A DNA stretch of 64,000 nucleotides from assembly GCA_963844245.1 (NCBI GenBank), contig CAWJNJ010000006.1, positions 392,142 through 456,141 of the forward strand. The letters are read 5' to 3'. Numbering within the stretch: the first letter of the stretch is position 1; every line of letters begins with the position of its first letter. Position numbers and translations under genes: made by a program. Shown piece after piece: positions 6,087-9,749 of this stretch. The DNA comes from an uncultured Acidobacteriota bacterium (lineage in GTDB: Bacteria; Acidobacteriota; Vicinamibacteria; Vicinamibacterales; 2-12-FULL-66-21). The notes under the pieces are model-generated. The model was not told the DNA's origin and did no database searches. It saw only the letters and a program-made list of their open reading frames with translations.

Positions 6087-7004
6087 ATGAACGCTCAGCG
6101 CACCCTTCGCCGCCACGTCTCCTGCACCGGGATCGGACTTCATTCCGGCAACAAGGTCACTCTTTCACTGAAGCCGGCCCCGGCTGATTACGGCATCCGT
6201 TTTCACCGCACCGACCTCGGCGTCGAGATACCTGCGACCATCACACACCTCGGCGGCATGCAGCAGTATCAGACCGGCCTGGCCCGCGAGGCGGTCTCGG
6301 TCGAGACCGTCGAGCACCTGCTGGCCGCGCTCAGCGCCCTTCGGATCGACAACGCGATTGTCGAAGTCAACCACCCCGAAGTGCCGATCATGGACGGCAG
6401 CGCCGCTCCGTGGGTGCATCTGATCCTGAACGAGGCGGGTGTCAAGCAATTGTCCGCGCCGCGCCGGTACCTCAAGGTCCTGCGCCCGATTTCGCTGGCC
6501 CAGGGCGACAAGCGCATCTCCCTGTATCCCGCGGATCATCTCAAGGTCACCTACAGCATCAGCTTCGATCATCCGCTCCTGCGTCACCAGTCGCGGACGA
6601 TGAAGATCACAGAAGAGAGCTTCGTCGAAGATATTGCTCCGGCGCGCACCTTCGGTTTCCTCAAGGAAGTCGAGATGCTGCGTCAGCGCGGCCTCGCCCT
6701 GGGCGGGTCGCTCGACAACGCCATCGTTCTCGGCGAGACGGGCGTTCTGAACAACACGCTCCGCTTCGAGGACGAGTTCGTGCGTCACAAGATCCTCGAC
6801 GCGATCGGCGACCTGTCGCTCGTGGGTCACCCGGTGATCGGTCACCTGGTGGCGCACCGTGGCGGCCACGCGTTGCACACGGCATTCGCCGCCAAGATCC
6901 TGGAAGAGCGGGATGCGTGGAAGCTGGTGGAAGCGCCCGTGGACGCCGAGGTCACCCGGCCAGTGGGATCCCGGGTTGGTGCGACGGCCCGTCTGGCGAA
7001 CTAG
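6087..7004 (+). CDS. lpxC: UDP-3-O-acyl-N-acetylglucosamine deacetylase
   Basis: 305-aa ORF with LpxC hallmarks GIGLHSG, VEHLLAAL, HKILDAIGDL and HRGGHALH. SD-like AGAGAGG lies upstream. Confidence 0.95.
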   Translation: MNAQRTLRRHVSCTGIGLHSGNKVTLSLKPAPADYGIRFHRTDLGVEIPATITHLGGMQQYQTGLAREAVSVETVEHLLAALSALRIDNAIVEVNHPEVPIMDGSAAPWVHLILNEAGVKQLSAPRRYLKVLRPISLAQGDKRISLYPADHLKVTYSISFDHPLLRHQSRTMKITEESFVEDIAPARTFGFLKEVEMLRQRGLALGGSLDNAIVLGETGVLNNTLRFEDEFVRHKILDAIGDLSLVGHPVIGHLVAHRGGHALHTAFAAKILEERDAWKLVEAPVDAEVTRPVGSRVGATARLAN

Positions 7005-7126
7005 ATCACCACGAGCGTCCTGGTCGTCGTCGGGGATCCGCAGGCCTCGCACCAGTCGATCCCCTCAGAGACCAGATCGCACTTCAGCGCGTAGCGCCCC
7101 GGCCTCGCCGGCGGCGTGATGATCAT
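7001..7126 (-). CDS. Candidate unannotated small ORF (41 aa, three Cys)
   Basis: ATG 7126 to TAG 7001 encodes MIITPPARPGRYALKCDLVSEGIDWCEACGSPTTTRTLVVI. 38 of 41 third codon positions are G/C, which is the coding signature of this genome. It starts 17 nt after the stop of the 99-aa gene on the same strand. The RBS is weak and it falls below the ORF-track length cut-off. Confidence 0.4.
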   Translation of the reverse strand: MIITPPARPGRYALKCDLVSEGIDWCEACGSPTTTRTLVVI

Positions 7127-7143
7127 CTCCACATCAGCGGCTG

Positions 7144-7443
7144 CTACTTGTCGATCGTCGATTCGTCCGAGACCGGTTCGGTCTTCGCGAGCCGCTTCAT
7201 GTAGGCGGCCAGCCGCTCGTTCTCGTAGGAGACAAAGTTCAGGAACAGGCTCTCGGACAGGTACTGCCGGCGTTCGTCGTCGGTCAGTTGCTCGATCACG
7301 TTCTGGATTTCACGGGACGTGTCCTCGAACGAATAATCCAGATCTGACTTGGCGTTCAGTTCCTTGTACAGCGTCTCGAGAACAGTCAGCAGATCGCCGT
7401 CGATCGCGACATCGGCCCCGCTGGTCAGCTTTACATTGCGCAT
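7144..7443 (-). CDS. Hypothetical small acidic, predicted-helical protein (99 aa), third gene of the ECF-STAS operon
   Basis: ORF starts 3 nt after the STAS gene stop. No family recognised. Confidence 0.6.
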   Translation of the reverse strand: MRNVKLTSGADVAIDGDLLTVLETLYKELNAKSDLDYSFEDTSREIQNVIEQLTDDERRQYLSESLFLNFVSYENERLAAYMKRLAKTEPVSDESTIDK

Positions 7444-7446
7444 GGG

Positions 7447-7788
7447 CTACGCTCCGAAGCTTTTGACGGCGCTCGGCTCGTCGGGGTGTACCTCGATAAA
7501 GTTCTGCGCCCCGGTCATCGTCAGCATCGTCTCGACTCGCTTCTGCACCCCGGCGAGCTTGAGGGCGCCGCCAGCGGCGCTGGCCTGGCGGTAGAGATCC
7601 ATCAGGCAGCCGATCGTGGCGCTGTCGACGTAGCCGACCTCGCTCAAGTCGACGACCAGCTTCTTCTCGCCCGCGGCGAGCAGTTGTGTCACGACCGTGG
7701 AGAACTCGGACAGGAGCGGGTACATCAACCGCGACTCGCCGACGCGAACGATGGAGACGCCGTTGGCTTGTTCGGTGCTCAGGTTCAT
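7447..7788 (-). CDS. STAS-domain anti-sigma-factor antagonist (SpoIIAA/RsbV-like)
   Basis: 113-aa ORF. KLVVDLSEVGYVDSATIGCLMDL matches the STAS phospho-Ser loop (DSxxxG). It starts 2 nt after the sigma gene stop. Confidence 0.85.
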   Translation of the reverse strand: MNLSTEQANGVSIVRVGESRLMYPLLSEFSTVVTQLLAAGEKKLVVDLSEVGYVDSATIGCLMDLYRQASAAGGALKLAGVQKRVETMLTMTGAQNFIEVHPDEPSAVKSFGA

Positions 7789-7790
7789 TC

Positions 7791-8435
7791 CTACACTCCG
7801 GAACGCCGGCTACGCGGCCGCGAGGGAACCCCGCGAAGGCGTTGCGCCGACTGTTTATCCTGCTGACGTTTCAGTTGCCGCGCCAGTTCGATGCGGCCGC
7901 GATTTATCCGTGACTTGACCGTGCCCTCGGGCAGCTCGAGTTTCTCCGCGATCTCCTGGTACGAGAGCTCCTGCAAGTCGCGAAGGACGACCGCGGTCCG
8001 CAGCGTCACCGGCAGCGCCTGCAGCGCATCCCGCAGCGTGGCGCGGAGGTCCTGGTGTTCAGCCGCGGCGTATGGCGTGCGGTCGCTCGATGCCGGCTGC
8101 AGGTCGGCGGTGTCGACTTCGCGCGCAATCGTCTGCCGCTCCTTCCGGACGCTGCGGTAGTGGTCGATGCAGAGGTTCCGGCTGATGCTGACGATCCAGG
8201 TCTGGAAATTGGCCCGCCGGTCGAAGGTGGCGAGTGCCTTGAAGATCTTGATGAAGATGTCCTGCGTGAGGTCTTCGGCCTCTTCGTGCTTGCCGACGAA
8301 CTTGTAGGCGACGTTGAACACCTTGCGCCAGTTCTGCCGGACAATCTGCTCCCACGCGACCTGGTCGCCCTTGAGACACTGCTCGATCAAGCGGTCGGGC
8401 GTCGCCGGCTGTGCGGCGGGTGAGTCAACGGACAT
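7791..8435 (-). CDS. ECF-type RNA polymerase sigma-70 family factor
   Basis: Region 2 (EDLTQDIFIKIFKAL..FQTWIVSISRNLCIDHYR) and region 4 (LRDLQELSYQEIAEKLELPEGTVKSRINRGR) are present. There is no region 3. Confidence 0.9.
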   Translation of the reverse strand: MSVDSPAAQPATPDRLIEQCLKGDQVAWEQIVRQNWRKVFNVAYKFVGKHEEAEDLTQDIFIKIFKALATFDRRANFQTWIVSISRNLCIDHYRSVRKERQTIAREVDTADLQPASSDRTPYAAAEHQDLRATLRDALQALPVTLRTAVVLRDLQELSYQEIAEKLELPEGTVKSRINRGRIELARQLKRQQDKQSAQRLRGVPSRPRSRRSGV

Positions 8436-8471
8436 GCGTCATCTGACTGAAATCAGGCGGGAAACACCGGA

Positions 8472-9749
8472 ATGATATCAGATAAGATTGGCGGATTCAT
8501 CGTGACGCTCACCGGATTCCATAGACAAGGAGGCGCGCTCGTTTGCGACGAGGTGCCCCTTCGAGACATCGCCGCGGCAGAAGGCACGCCGCTCTACGTT
8601 TACAGCGCGAACGTTATCGCCGAGCGGTTCACGGCAATCGCCGAGGCGTTCGCCTCCTACCCGCACTCGCTGCACTACGCGCTGAAAGCCAACTCGACAC
8701 TGGCGATCGCCCGGCTGCTGCGCAGTCTCGGCGCAGGAGCGGACGCAAACTCGGGCGGCGAGATTGACGTCGCCCTGCGCGCCGGCTTCATTCCGGCGCA
8801 GATCGTCTTCACCGGCGTTGGCAAAACACAGGCAGAGCTCGCGCAGGCGATCGACCTGGGCGTGATGACCATCAACGCCGAGTCGGCCGGCGAGATCGAG
8901 CGCATCGATGCGCTCGCCATCGCTCGCCAGGTTCGCGCCAGAATCGCGTTGCGGGTGAATCCCGACATCGACGCCAAAAGCCATCCCCACATTTCCACCG
9001 GGCTGAAGACGAACAAATTCGGCGTGCCGATCGATGCCGTCACCGAATTGTGCAGACGCTTTGCAAACGCCGCCGGCGTTGAGATCGTGGGCTTGCACAT
9101 CCACCTGGGATCGCAGATGACCGAGCTTGGGCCGCTGCGCAAAGCGTCCGAGGCGATCGTGGCGCTGTCGCGCGAGCTGCGAAACCTGGGCGTCTTCATC
9201 GACCACGTCGATCTCGGCGGCGGTCTCGGCATCTCGTACGACGGCTCGCCCGTGCCGACCGCGAAGGAGTATGCCGAGGCGCTGCTACCCGCGGTACGTG
9301 ACTCGGGACTCAAGCTGATCCTCGAACCAGGACGGAACATCATTGCGCCGGCCGGCGTGCTGCTCTCGCGCGTCATCGACGTCAAACCGCAGGGCGGCGG
9401 CCGCCAGTTCGTGATCCTCGATGCCGGCATGACGGAACTGATTCGTCCGATGCTCTACAACGCTTTCCATCGCATCGAGCATGTCGAGAACATGGATCGT
9501 CCGTCAGCCGATTGCGACATCGTCGGGCCGCTCTGCGAGAGCAGCGACACCCTTGGAAAGAACCGCGTCGTGGCGCAGCCCGAAGTCGGCGACCTGATGG
9601 CGGTCCTCGACACGGGCGCCTACGGTGCCGTCATGGCCTCCAACTACAATCGCCGGCTGATGCCGGCCGAAGTGCTGGTGGATGGCGCGCGTTGGACCGT
9701 GATTCGCCGCCGGCAGACCATCGACGACCTGCTCGCGCTCGAAGCATGA
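8472..9749 (+). CDS. lysA: Diaminopimelate decarboxylase
   Basis: 425-aa ORF. Motifs GTPLYVYS, HYALKAN (PLP Lys), DLGGGLGI and GPLCESSD fit an Orn/DAP/Arg decarboxylase fold. An alternative GTG start exists at 8505. Confidence 0.92.
   Translation: MISDKIGGFIVTLTGFHRQGGALVCDEVPLRDIAAAEGTPLYVYSANVIAERFTAIAEAFASYPHSLHYALKANSTLAIARLLRSLGAGADANSGGEIDVALRAGFIPAQIVFTGVGKTQAELAQAIDLGVMTINAESAGEIERIDALAIARQVRARIALRVNPDIDAKSHPHISTGLKTNKFGVPIDAVTELCRRFANAAGVEIVGLHIHLGSQMTELGPLRKASEAIVALSRELRNLGVFIDHVDLGGGLGISYDGSPVPTAKEYAEALLPAVRDSGLKLILEPGRNIIAPAGVLLSRVIDVKPQGGGRQFVILDAGMTELIRPMLYNAFHRIEHVENMDRPSADCDIVGPLCESSDTLGKNRVVAQPEVGDLMAVLDTGAYGAVMASNYNRRLMPAEVLVDGARWTVIRRRQTIDDLLALEA

What the first reader, a model, noticed from the sequence alone, without database searches (positions are those of the whole stretch)
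7144..8435. ECF sigma factor co-operonic with a STAS antagonist and an unassigned 99-aa acidic protein, with no recognisable anti-sigma factor or kinase
The three genes are separated by 2 and 3 nt. ECF sigmas are normally paired with a cognate anti-sigma factor. STAS antagonists normally act on an RsbW/SpoIIAB-type anti-sigma kinase. Neither a zf-HC2/RskA-type anti-sigma factor nor an HATPase kinase is encoded here. The STAS protein keeps the phosphorylatable Ser context (VDSATIG). By analogy with the small helical anti-sigma NepR in the PhyR-NepR-EcfG partner switch, the 99-aa protein is a candidate for a new anti-sigma class targeted by a STAS protein.
Basis: inference. Interest (0 to 1): 0.6.

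Follow-up and report, generated by a model that had tools for sequence, protein, structure and literature searches.

The report
Sigma factor, STAS, unknown small partner
A soil Acidobacterium encodes a stress-type sigma factor with a STAS switch protein and an unclassified 99-residue acidic protein; across hundreds of genomes these genes are kept and lost together, so the small protein is probably a new kind of sigma-factor regulator, though this is not proven.

Summary
Three minus-strand genes lie 2 and 3 nt apart: an ECF sigma (7791-8435), a STAS protein with the phosphorylatable Asp-Ser (7447-7788), and a 99-aa acidic protein, p99 (7144-7443). p99 matches nothing in Pfam, NCBIfam, PDB sequences or PDB folds. 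The flanks are housekeeping genes.

STAS and p99 are adjacent in every locus examined, including other Acidobacteriota classes where the flanks differ. The sigma sits directly upstream in four lineages and elsewhere in five. In 351 Vicinamibacterales genomes, p99 and the sigma ortholog agree in presence or absence in 346. One 100%-complete genome keeps STAS at the syntenic site but has lost both flanking genes, sigma and p99. The sigma's closest paralogs are each followed by a zf-HC2 membrane anti-sigma factor; the STAS-p99-associated sigma never is.

Best reading (confidence about 0.45): a three-part partner switch in which p99 is a small soluble anti-sigma factor displaced by STAS, like HsbA-FlgM-sigma28. 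"No kinase" holds only for the locus. The genome has RsbW-type kinases and about ten PP2C phosphatases elsewhere.

No binding is shown. A fold prediction of a STAS-p99 read-through fusion gave no support. This is a new variant of a known kind and recurs in sister genomes in this scan.

The parts
7791..8435 (-). ECF (group 4) sigma-70 family sigma factor, 214 aa, basic (pI 9.8), with a non-conserved basic C-terminal tail after residue ~195
   Evidence: ORF. Sigma70_r2, Sigma70_r4_2 and TIGR02937 hits. Orthologs at 58-97% identity across the order. pI.
7447..7788 (-). Single-domain STAS (SpoIIAA/RsbV-like) protein, 113 aa, with the phosphorylatable Ser in YVDSATIG
   Evidence: PF01740 at 6.8e-15 and TIGR00377 above its cut-off. 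Asp-Ser is invariant in 24 of 24 diverse orthologs upstream of p99.
7144..7443 (-). p99: unclassified small acidic protein. Conserved ~87-aa core (beta-hairpin, LDGDLL motif, three helices, ESLFLN..YENE motif) and a non-conserved acidic tail
   Evidence: No Pfam, NCBIfam or PDB sequence hit. More than 5,400 90%-identity clusters but only 322 50%-identity clusters. AF2 model pLDDT 71. No Foldseek match in PDB. Alignments A1 and A3.
8472..8480 (-). TGATATCAT, an extended -10-like (TGnTATnAT) motif 37-45 nt upstream of the sigma ATG; probable housekeeping-type promoter of the operon
   Evidence: Unique in the window. TGnTA..(A/T)T is found mostly 39-52 nt upstream of the start codon in 64 of 94 distinct orthologous upstream regions, against 1 of 94 after shuffling. 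The generic promoter scan did not score it because no -35 element is present.
7001..7126 (-). 41-codon relic of the radical-SAM gene that follows p99 in most relatives; here only its last ~40 codons survive
   Evidence: tblastn of the 41-aa ORF hits the 3' end of the long radical-SAM ORF about 1.3-1.6 kb downstream of p99 in more than 80 loci. In L070 the ORF 6376-7653 ends ...PGRYALKFDLVSEGIDWFEACGSPTTTRTLVVI.

Best explanation
The three genes encode a cytoplasmic three-component partner switch for one ECF sigma factor. p99, a small acidic helical protein, holds the basic sigma factor inactive and so acts as an anti-sigma factor. The STAS protein in its unphosphorylated form binds p99 and frees the sigma. 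The invariant STAS serine is phosphorylated by an RsbW-type kinase encoded elsewhere and dephosphorylated by one of the many sensor-linked PP2C phosphatases. That sets how much STAS is free to capture p99. The operon is read from a housekeeping-type extended -10 promoter, so control is mainly post-translational.

Shown: gene order and coupling, conservation, co-occurrence and co-loss, absence of any classical anti-sigma factor next to this sigma, conservation of the serine, and presence of trans-encoded kinases and phosphatases.

Inferred: every protein-protein contact, the sign of p99's effect on the sigma, and the identity of the kinase and phosphatase.
For: 1. STAS-p99 adjacency. STAS lies immediately upstream of p99 in all 24 diverse loci. 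The spacing is -8 to +14 nt in almost all of 126 loci. This includes nine non-Vicinamibacteria loci (five family-level lineages) where lysA/lpxC synteny is gone and the sigma is not adjacent.
2. Order sigma-STAS-p99. This order is kept in all 31 order-level loci first examined and in four lineages with different flanks: Vicinamibacteria, f50, f28 and f29.
3. Presence and absence. Among 351 Vicinamibacterales genomes that are at least 90% complete, p99 is present in 321 and the sigma ortholog in 318. They agree in 346, with 29 genomes lacking both, spread over at least 9 families and including single-contig genomes.
4. G154. This 100%-complete genome keeps an intact STAS ortholog (68% identity) between lysA and lpxC. 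Both flanking genes, sigma and p99, are gone and are absent elsewhere in the genome. This needs two separate deletions.
5. Paralogs. The closest sigma paralogs in the phylum are directly followed by a zf-HC2 transmembrane anti-sigma factor in 9 of 10 sampled loci and in at least 45 adjacent pairs found by crossing the coordinates. None of the STAS-p99-linked sigmas has one.
6. Unlinked cases. Every sampled p99-positive genome whose pair is unlinked carries a sigma without an adjacent zf-HC2 anti-sigma. These sigmas cluster (support 94/91) with a STAS-p99-linked sigma.
7. Gene position and charge. STAS followed by p99 mirrors rsbV-rsbW and spoIIAA-spoIIAB. The p99 core is acidic in all but a few orthologs (median pI 4.9, median net charge -6) and the sigma is basic (pI 9.8).
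8. Precedent. The STAS protein PA3347/HsbA binds the non-kinase anti-sigma factor FlgM (PMC8256260, read).
Against: No physical interaction has been measured or predicted. AF2 of the natural read-through fusion STAS-Gly-Pro-p99 gave pTM 0.55, and the p99 part scored pLDDT 58-79, no better than p99 alone at 60-84. This test is weak because the linker is 2 residues and only 20 rows pair the two proteins.

p99 resembles no known anti-sigma domain in sequence or fold. No natural fusions exist; the long hits are frameshift chimeras.

In five lineages STAS-p99 lies away from the sigma, next to unrelated genes: a GGDEF protein in L035 and a sigma-54 activator in L047 and L048.

Co-loss of adjacent genes is expected from single deletions, so only G154 is a clean test, and it is one event. 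Co-loss fits a positive cofactor as well as an anti-sigma factor. The backbone of the sigma tree is unresolved.
Confidence: 0.45

Rival explanations
1. p99 is a positive partner of the sigma factor: a Crl-like activator, folding chaperone or stabiliser. STAS sequesters it, so STAS is the negative element.
For: The co-occurrence and co-loss data fit this equally well. An acidic partner for a basic sigma is also compatible. The sigma has no recognisable negative regulator, but none is strictly required.
Against: The gene position after STAS matches that of anti-sigma factors in canonical operons. The sister paralog group uses an anti-sigma factor, so negative control is the ancestral logic. STAS proteins are known as antagonists of inhibitors (PMC8256260).
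Confidence: 0.15
2. STAS-p99 is a self-contained two-protein signalling pair whose target is not this sigma factor. The sigma gene is merely a frequent upstream neighbour or a co-transcribed gene.
For: The pair is the invariant core. In nine loci from five lineages it has no adjacent sigma and sits beside a diguanylate cyclase or sigma-54 regulators. Non-canonical STAS proteins with non-sigma outputs are known, such as SypA and HsbA-HsbD (PMC8256260, PMC5085249 listed).
Against: G154 lost sigma and p99 by separate deletions while keeping STAS. Presence and absence agree in 346 of 351 genomes. Every sampled p99-positive genome has a sigma of the type that lacks a zf-HC2 anti-sigma. The same sigma ortholog sits next to the pair in four lineages with different flanks.
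Confidence: 0.15
3. This is a canonical partner switch whose RsbW-type anti-sigma kinase is simply encoded elsewhere. That kinase, not p99, binds the sigma, and p99 is an accessory or modulator of STAS.
For: The genome holds 5 strong HATPase_c_2 proteins, 6 STAS proteins and about 10 SpoIIE PP2C phosphatases. An orphan ~147-aa RsbW-type protein at contig C9:15580-16020 is conserved in 260 of 301 genomes of the phylum. The STAS serine is invariant. STAS survives in G154 without sigma or p99, so it has another partner.
Against: The orphan kinase is just as present in p99-negative genomes, so it does not co-vary with the module. RsbW-type proteins classically target group 3 sigmas; I know of no case for ECF sigmas (own knowledge). 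This reading leaves the tight p99-sigma co-variation unexplained.
Confidence: 0.15
4. STAS itself binds and controls the sigma directly, and p99 is the antagonist that removes STAS. The roles of STAS and p99 are swapped.
For: Sigma and STAS are adjacent with a 2-nt gap. An earlier scan note on other STAS-ECF cassettes raised direct STAS-sigma binding (unchecked).
Against: STAS persists without the sigma in G154. In five lineages STAS stays with p99 rather than with the sigma. There is no precedent for a single-domain STAS acting as an anti-sigma factor (own knowledge).
Confidence: 0.07

Closest known systems
HptB-HsbR-HsbA(PA3347)-FlgM-sigma28 partner switch of Pseudomonas aeruginosa (PMC8256260; PMC5085249)
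   Same: A single-domain, serine-phosphorylatable STAS protein is proposed to capture a small, soluble anti-sigma factor that has no kinase domain and so release the sigma factor. The kinase and phosphatase acting on STAS are separate from the anti-sigma factor.
   Different: Here the sigma is an ECF (group 4) factor, not FliA. p99 has no similarity to FlgM: there is no PF04316 hit and the model has a beta-hairpin plus three helices. The STAS and small-protein genes are translationally coupled and usually sit in the sigma operon. No HsbR-like kinase/phosphatase is linked. Nothing has been tested experimentally.
RsbV-RsbW-sigmaB and SpoIIAA-SpoIIAB-sigmaF modules of Bacillus subtilis
   Same: The gene order has the STAS antagonist followed by the switch partner, in one operon with the sigma factor. 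The Asp-Ser phosphorylation site in STAS is conserved.
   Different: The partner here is not a GHKL/HATPase_c_2 kinase (99 aa, no domain hit). The sigma gene lies upstream, not downstream. The sigma is ECF type, not group 3.
PhyR-NepR-EcfG general stress switch of Alphaproteobacteria
   Same: A small soluble helical anti-sigma factor for an ECF sigma, displaced by a phosphorylation-controlled antagonist.
   Different: The antagonist there is a sigma-mimic fused to a receiver domain, not a STAS protein. NepR is about 60 aa with two helices and is unrelated to p99. The taxon and the ECF group also differ.
Bordetella btr locus (BtrS ECF sigma with BtrU PP2C, BtrW kinase and BtrV STAS; PMC7498569 listed)
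   Same: An ECF sigma gene is genetically linked to a STAS protein.
   Different: The btr locus encodes the kinase and phosphatase in cis. Its anti-sigma factor BtrA is a secreted type III substrate. It has no p99-like protein.
zf-HC2 (class I) transmembrane anti-sigma factors paired with the paralogous ECF sigmas in the same phylum
   Same: They occupy the position directly downstream of a closely related sigma (42-48% identity) and presumably perform the function proposed for p99.
   Different: They are membrane-anchored, carry the HxxxCxxC zinc motif, are about 200 aa and are followed by a B-box membrane protein. p99 has none of these features.

Membership tests
ECF (group 4) sigma-70 family | Regions 2 and 4 only, with a match to the ECF superfamily model | tested here: met
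   Sigma70_r2 at 2.5e-20, Sigma70_r4_2 at 3.2e-17, TIGR02937 at 126 bits against a cut-off of 42.9. There is no region 3 hit.
ECF sigma with a cognate class I (ASD/zf-HC2/RskA) anti-sigma factor | An anti-sigma domain protein encoded next to the sigma gene | tested here: not met
   The downstream genes are STAS and p99. Neither has an anti-sigma domain hit. The flanking genes are housekeeping. Paralogous sigmas in the phylum do have such a gene.
STAS / SpoIIAA-type anti-sigma-factor antagonist | STAS fold and a match to the antagonist family model | tested here: met
   PF01740 at 6.8e-15 and TIGR00377 at 54.6 bits against a cut-off of 53.45. In the AF2 fusion model the STAS part scores pLDDT 85-93 with alternating strands and helices.
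STAS / SpoIIAA-type anti-sigma-factor antagonist | Conserved phosphorylatable Ser/Thr after Asp at the start of helix 2 | tested here: met
   Asp-Ser is invariant in 24 of 24 orthologs from several classes. Whether the residue is actually phosphorylated cannot be tested with these tools.
RsbW/SpoIIAB anti-sigma serine kinases (as the identity of p99) | HATPase_c_2 (GHKL) domain of about 140 aa | tested here: not met
   p99 has 99 aa and no Pfam or NCBIfam hit below E=0.03. True HATPase_c_2 genes lie on other contigs.
FlgM, NepR and other known small soluble anti-sigma factors (as the identity of p99) | Sequence or fold match to the family | tested here: not met
   No Pfam hit to any anti-sigma family at E up to 1. 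A profile search of PDB sequences gave a best E of 0.095, to unrelated enzymes. Foldseek against PDB gave no hit with E below 2.9.
Partner-switching system (functional class) | A STAS antagonist, a switch partner that binds either STAS or the target, and a kinase/phosphatase pair acting on STAS | tested here: inconclusive
   STAS is present. p99 is the candidate switch partner by linkage and co-loss. Kinases and PP2C phosphatases exist only in trans and cannot be assigned. Binding was not tested. The fusion model is uninformative.

The most novel reading that the evidence does not exclude
p99 founds a new class of small soluble anti-sigma factors whose dedicated antagonist is a STAS protein. 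The two-gene STAS-p99 switch would be ancestral to several Acidobacteriota classes. It would have become the sole regulator of an ECF sigma paralog that does not have the zf-HC2 membrane anti-sigma factor kept by its sister paralogs. That would move control of this sigma from an envelope signal to a cytoplasmic phosphorylation network.
Probability: 0.4. Interest if true: 0.75.

Novelty: new variant of a known kind. Interest (0 to 1): 0.55.

Why it matters
ECF sigma factors are among the most abundant bacterial signalling devices, and their modes of control have been catalogued in detail. A search of the 2021 ECF reclassification paper found no occurrence of the word STAS (passages read). If p99 is an anti-sigma factor, it adds a new soluble anti-sigma family and a new wiring in which a STAS antagonist acts on an ECF sigma through a partner that is not a kinase. 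The module is present in 321 of 351 sampled genomes of Vicinamibacterales, a widespread group of soil bacteria (own knowledge). It therefore probably controls an important but unknown regulon there. Small orthogonal sigma, anti-sigma and antagonist triples are also useful parts for synthetic gene circuits.

Tried and rejected
1. Domain and fold assignment of p99. Pfam, NCBIfam, a profile search of PDB sequences, an AF2 model and Foldseek against PDB all gave nothing usable. A weak VapB/AbrB-like N-terminal resemblance (E=0.42) was not pursued as evidence.

2. Rosetta-stone fusions. The search of 1.84 billion representatives gave 322 hits. The long ones (P0261, P0318, P0359 and others) are frameshift or assembly chimeras of STAS plus p99, or of p99 plus the radical-SAM gene. 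They are not true fusions.

3. Pseudo-multimer. STAS and p99 are in the same frame, so I folded the natural read-through fusion with 20 paired and 42 unpaired rows. The result was pTM 0.55 with no gain in p99 confidence, so it gives no support and is a weak test. Sigma-STAS cannot be fused this way because the gap is 2 nt.

4. In-situ displacement. I checked whether STAS-p99 sits exactly where the zf-HC2 anti-sigma factor sits, upstream of the B-box membrane gene. It does not. The genes downstream of p99 vary: a cupredoxin-like gene, a radical-SAM gene and others. The own genome has no B-box homolog.

5. A missing kinase that co-varies with p99. The orphan RsbW-type gene on C9 is phylum-wide and present in p99-negative genomes, so it is uninformative.

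6. The zf-HC2 profile as a presence/absence marker. It is too generic (271 of 301 genomes hit), so only adjacency to the sigma was used.

7. An ECF-type autoregulated promoter. None was evident. An extended -10-like motif was found instead.

8. The first related-loci run failed because alignment A1 was too diverse. It worked with A2, but the 80 loci kept were all close relatives.

Full report
**What is in the window**

One search shows three minus-strand ORFs at the stated coordinates.
- 7791-8435: 214 aa.
- 7447-7788: 113 aa.
- 7144-7443: 99 aa.

The gaps are 2 nt and 3 nt. The 214-aa protein is an ECF sigma factor, with Sigma70_r2, Sigma70_r4_2 and TIGR02937 well above its cut-off. The 113-aa protein is a single-domain STAS protein, matching PF01740 at 6.8e-15 and TIGR00377 just above its cut-off. 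It carries the YVDSATIG motif, with Ser in the position of the phosphorylated Ser58 of B. subtilis SpoIIAA (position from my own knowledge).

The 99-aa protein, p99, has no Pfam or NCBIfam hit better than E=0.03. It is acidic and has no membrane segment. The flanking genes are uvrA and lpxC on one side and lysA, tmk, a ComF-like gene and rsfS on the other. No anti-sigma or kinase gene lies at the locus. The window is contig C6:392142-456141 of a 5.27-Mb assembly. Related loci are all from Vicinamibacterales in Acidobacteriota.

**p99 as a family**

A word-indexed search found 2,205 and then 5,466 related clusters at 90% identity. Almost none carries an informative name, and the few source names are mutually inconsistent. 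An exhaustive HMMER search of 1.84 billion 50%-identity representatives found only 322. The family is therefore compact and conserved.

- The conserved core is about 87 residues, with invariant G9, D15-G16-D17, E23, E45-I46, Q52, Y61 and E64, and the ESLFLN..YENE block.
- The acidic C-terminal tail in this genome is not conserved.
- The core is acidic in all but a few of 51 orthologs: median pI 4.9 (range 4.5-6.1) and median net charge -6. The sigma has pI 9.8.
- AF2 with 55 sequences gives a moderate model: pLDDT 71, pTM 0.42, an N-terminal beta-hairpin and three helices.
- Foldseek finds nothing in PDB, and a profile search of PDB sequences finds nothing.
- Longer proteins containing the domain are frameshift chimeras, not fusions.

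**STAS and p99 are the invariant core**

In all 31 order-level loci first examined the order sigma-STAS-p99 is kept, but so is the whole neighbourhood. The informative cases are 19 loci outside the order.
- In the 17 from other classes of the phylum (families f26, f28, f29, f30, f31, f43, f50, f51) the lysA/lpxC/uvrA flanks are gone. The two from a sister family in the same class (f19) keep lpxC and uvrA.
- A STAS gene lies immediately upstream of p99 in every one, and its Asp-Ser is invariant.
- Over 126 loci the STAS-p99 spacing is almost always -8 to +14 nt.
- The sigma is directly upstream in Vicinamibacteria, f50, f28 and f29.
- It is not upstream in f30, f51, f26, f43 or f31. There the neighbours include a GGDEF protein (L035) and a sigma-54-type response regulator (L047, L048).

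**The sigma belongs to a paralog family whose other members have a classical anti-sigma factor**

Sigmas at 42-48% identity occur in most genomes of the phylum. In 9 of 10 sampled p99-negative genomes, the best hit is followed within a few nucleotides by a ~200-aa protein with HxxxCxxC and one transmembrane segment, which is a zf-HC2 anti-sigma factor. A B-box membrane protein follows that. Crossing the coordinates gives at least 45 such adjacent pairs. None of the STAS-p99-linked sigmas has this gene.

p99-positive genomes whose pair is unlinked all carry a sigma without an adjacent zf-HC2 protein (L146-L151, L154-L156). In a maximum-likelihood tree these sigmas cluster (support 94/91) with a STAS-p99-linked sigma. 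The zf-HC2-linked sigmas of p99-negative genomes form a separate supported clade (96/93). The backbone of the tree is unresolved. Families f26, f19 and f28 have both types, so the two are paralogs and not a simple replacement. The own genome has no B-box homolog. Its nearest sigma paralog (40% identity) lies on contig C13 next to its own anti-sigma factor and a divergent RsbW-STAS-PP2C module.

**Co-occurrence and co-loss**

In 351 Vicinamibacterales genomes at least 90% complete, p99 is found in 321 and the sigma ortholog (E at or below 1e-50) in 318.

| Category | Genomes | Notes |
|---|---|---|
| Both present | 317 | |
| Both absent | 29 | the 19 listed lie in 9 families; four are single-contig genomes |
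| p99 only | 4 | G402, G527, G537, G566; three have only weak p99 hits |
| Sigma only | 1 | G448, an assembly of 820 contigs |

Because the genes are adjacent, joint loss by a single deletion is expected, so this table alone is weak evidence.

G154 is the clean case. It is 100% complete. Its syntenic locus reads tmk-lysA | STAS | lpxC-uvrA, with an intact STAS at 68% identity. The sigma gene on one side and p99 on the other are both missing, and neither occurs elsewhere in the genome. Two separate deletions around a retained gene argue that the sigma and p99 depend on each other. They also argue that STAS has at least one other partner.

**Kinase and phosphatase**

The statement that there is no kinase holds only for the locus.
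- The genome has 5 strong HATPase_c_2 proteins, 6 STAS proteins and about 10 SpoIIE-type PP2C genes.
- An orphan ~147-aa RsbW-type gene lies on contig C9 between aroA and a gene I did not verify.
- That gene is conserved in 260 of 301 genomes of the phylum, including p99-negative ones. It is a plausible trans-acting kinase, but it does not co-vary with the module.

**Structural proxy for a complex**

STAS and p99 are in the same reading frame (stop codon, 3 nt, then ATG). I translated the natural read-through product. I then folded it with 20 paired and 42 unpaired alignment rows. The result was pTM 0.55. The STAS part scored pLDDT 85-93 and the p99 part 58-79, no better than p99 alone. This gives no support for a STAS-p99 complex. 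The test is weak: the linker is 2 residues, few rows pair the two proteins, and no error map is returned.

**Interpretation**

All three pairwise links have some genomic support:
- STAS-p99: always adjacent.
- Sigma-p99: separate co-loss in G154, agreement in presence and absence, and a sigma without a zf-HC2 anti-sigma in every sampled p99-positive genome.
- Sigma-STAS: adjacent in four lineages.

The simplest model is a partner switch, sigma <-> p99 <-> STAS, with STAS phosphorylation set by enzymes encoded elsewhere. The closest precedent is HsbA (PA3347), a STAS protein that binds the non-kinase anti-sigma factor FlgM (PMC8256260). I put about 0.45 on p99 being the anti-sigma factor and about 0.85 on the three proteins forming one functional module. 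The main rivals are these:
- p99 is a positive cofactor of the sigma.
- STAS-p99 acts on another target.
- An unlinked RsbW-type protein is the real anti-sigma factor.
- The roles of STAS and p99 are swapped.

**Novelty**

A search of the 2021 ECF reclassification paper found no occurrence of STAS. The passages I read there do not describe this arrangement. The review of STAS-only proteins has no occurrence of ECF. Earlier notes from this scan report the same triad in several sister genomes and reach similar readings. I treated those notes as leads only. I re-derived the co-loss argument independently. I also added the data from other classes, the paralog and anti-sigma contrast, the trans-encoded kinase inventory and the negative fusion model.

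**Side results**

The 41-codon ORF at 7001-7126 is the 3' relic of the radical-SAM gene that follows p99 in most relatives. A TGnTATnAT extended -10-like motif lies 37-45 nt upstream of the sigma ATG here, and mostly 39-52 nt upstream in 64 of 94 orthologous upstream regions. It overlaps the first ATG of the lysA ORF at 8472, so the true lysA start is probably further downstream.

Noticed in passing
window 7001-7126 (-): The 41-codon ORF after p99 (MIITPPARPGRYALKCDLVSEGIDWCEACGSPTTTRTLVVI) is the surviving 3' end of the ~450-aa radical-SAM gene that follows p99 in most Vicinamibacterales. The rest of that gene has been deleted in this genome. This explains the coding-like codon bias noted in finding e1-3247805.
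   Followed up: yes
window 8469-8481 (-), overlapping the first ATG of the lysA ORF at 8472: A conserved CTGATATCATTCC motif (TGnTATnAT, extended -10-like and partly palindromic) lies 37-45 nt upstream of the sigma start here, and mostly 39-52 nt upstream in 64 of 94 orthologous upstream regions against 1 of 94 after shuffling. It implies that the lysA start at 8472 is spurious; alignments to other LysA proteins begin at residues 1-39, most often about 10-28. A conserved GATGACGC precedes the sigma ATG and forms a 5-codon overlapping mini-frame, which was not examined.
   Followed up: partly
G000 contig C13:28019-32500 (locus L152 2671-7028): A canonical module (FHA-GAF-PP2C, STAS, RsbW-type kinase) lies divergent to the nearest paralog of the sigma (40% identity), which has its own 501-aa anti-sigma-like partner. 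The PP2C hit is split over two frames, so it may be a frameshift.
   Followed up: partly
G000 contig C9:15580-16020: An orphan ~147-aa RsbW-type HATPase_c_2 gene lies next to aroA. It is single-copy in most genomes and conserved in 260 of 301 sampled Acidobacteriota genomes. Its STAS partner and sigma target are unknown.
   Followed up: partly
loci L132-L140, L142-L144, L149-L151 (other Acidobacteriota): A widely conserved cluster: ECF sigma, zf-HC2 anti-sigma factor, a B-box-type zinc-finger membrane protein (MKC.YH...C..C...LC..C), then small and large membrane proteins with LLxGxxFLL repeats that I did not identify. In some p99-positive lineages the same cluster lacks the zf-HC2 gene.
   Followed up: partly
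G154:C17:115000-125500 (locus L162): A 100%-complete Vicinamibacterales genome with STAS alone between lysA and lpxC. The STAS stop overlaps the lpxC stop region, so the deletions are precise.
   Followed up: yes
order-level genomes G527, G537, G566 (coordinates not returned): These genomes have weak p99 hits (E from 9e-12 to 7e-4) and no sigma ortholog. The hits may be decaying p99 remnants left after loss of the sigma.
   Followed up: no
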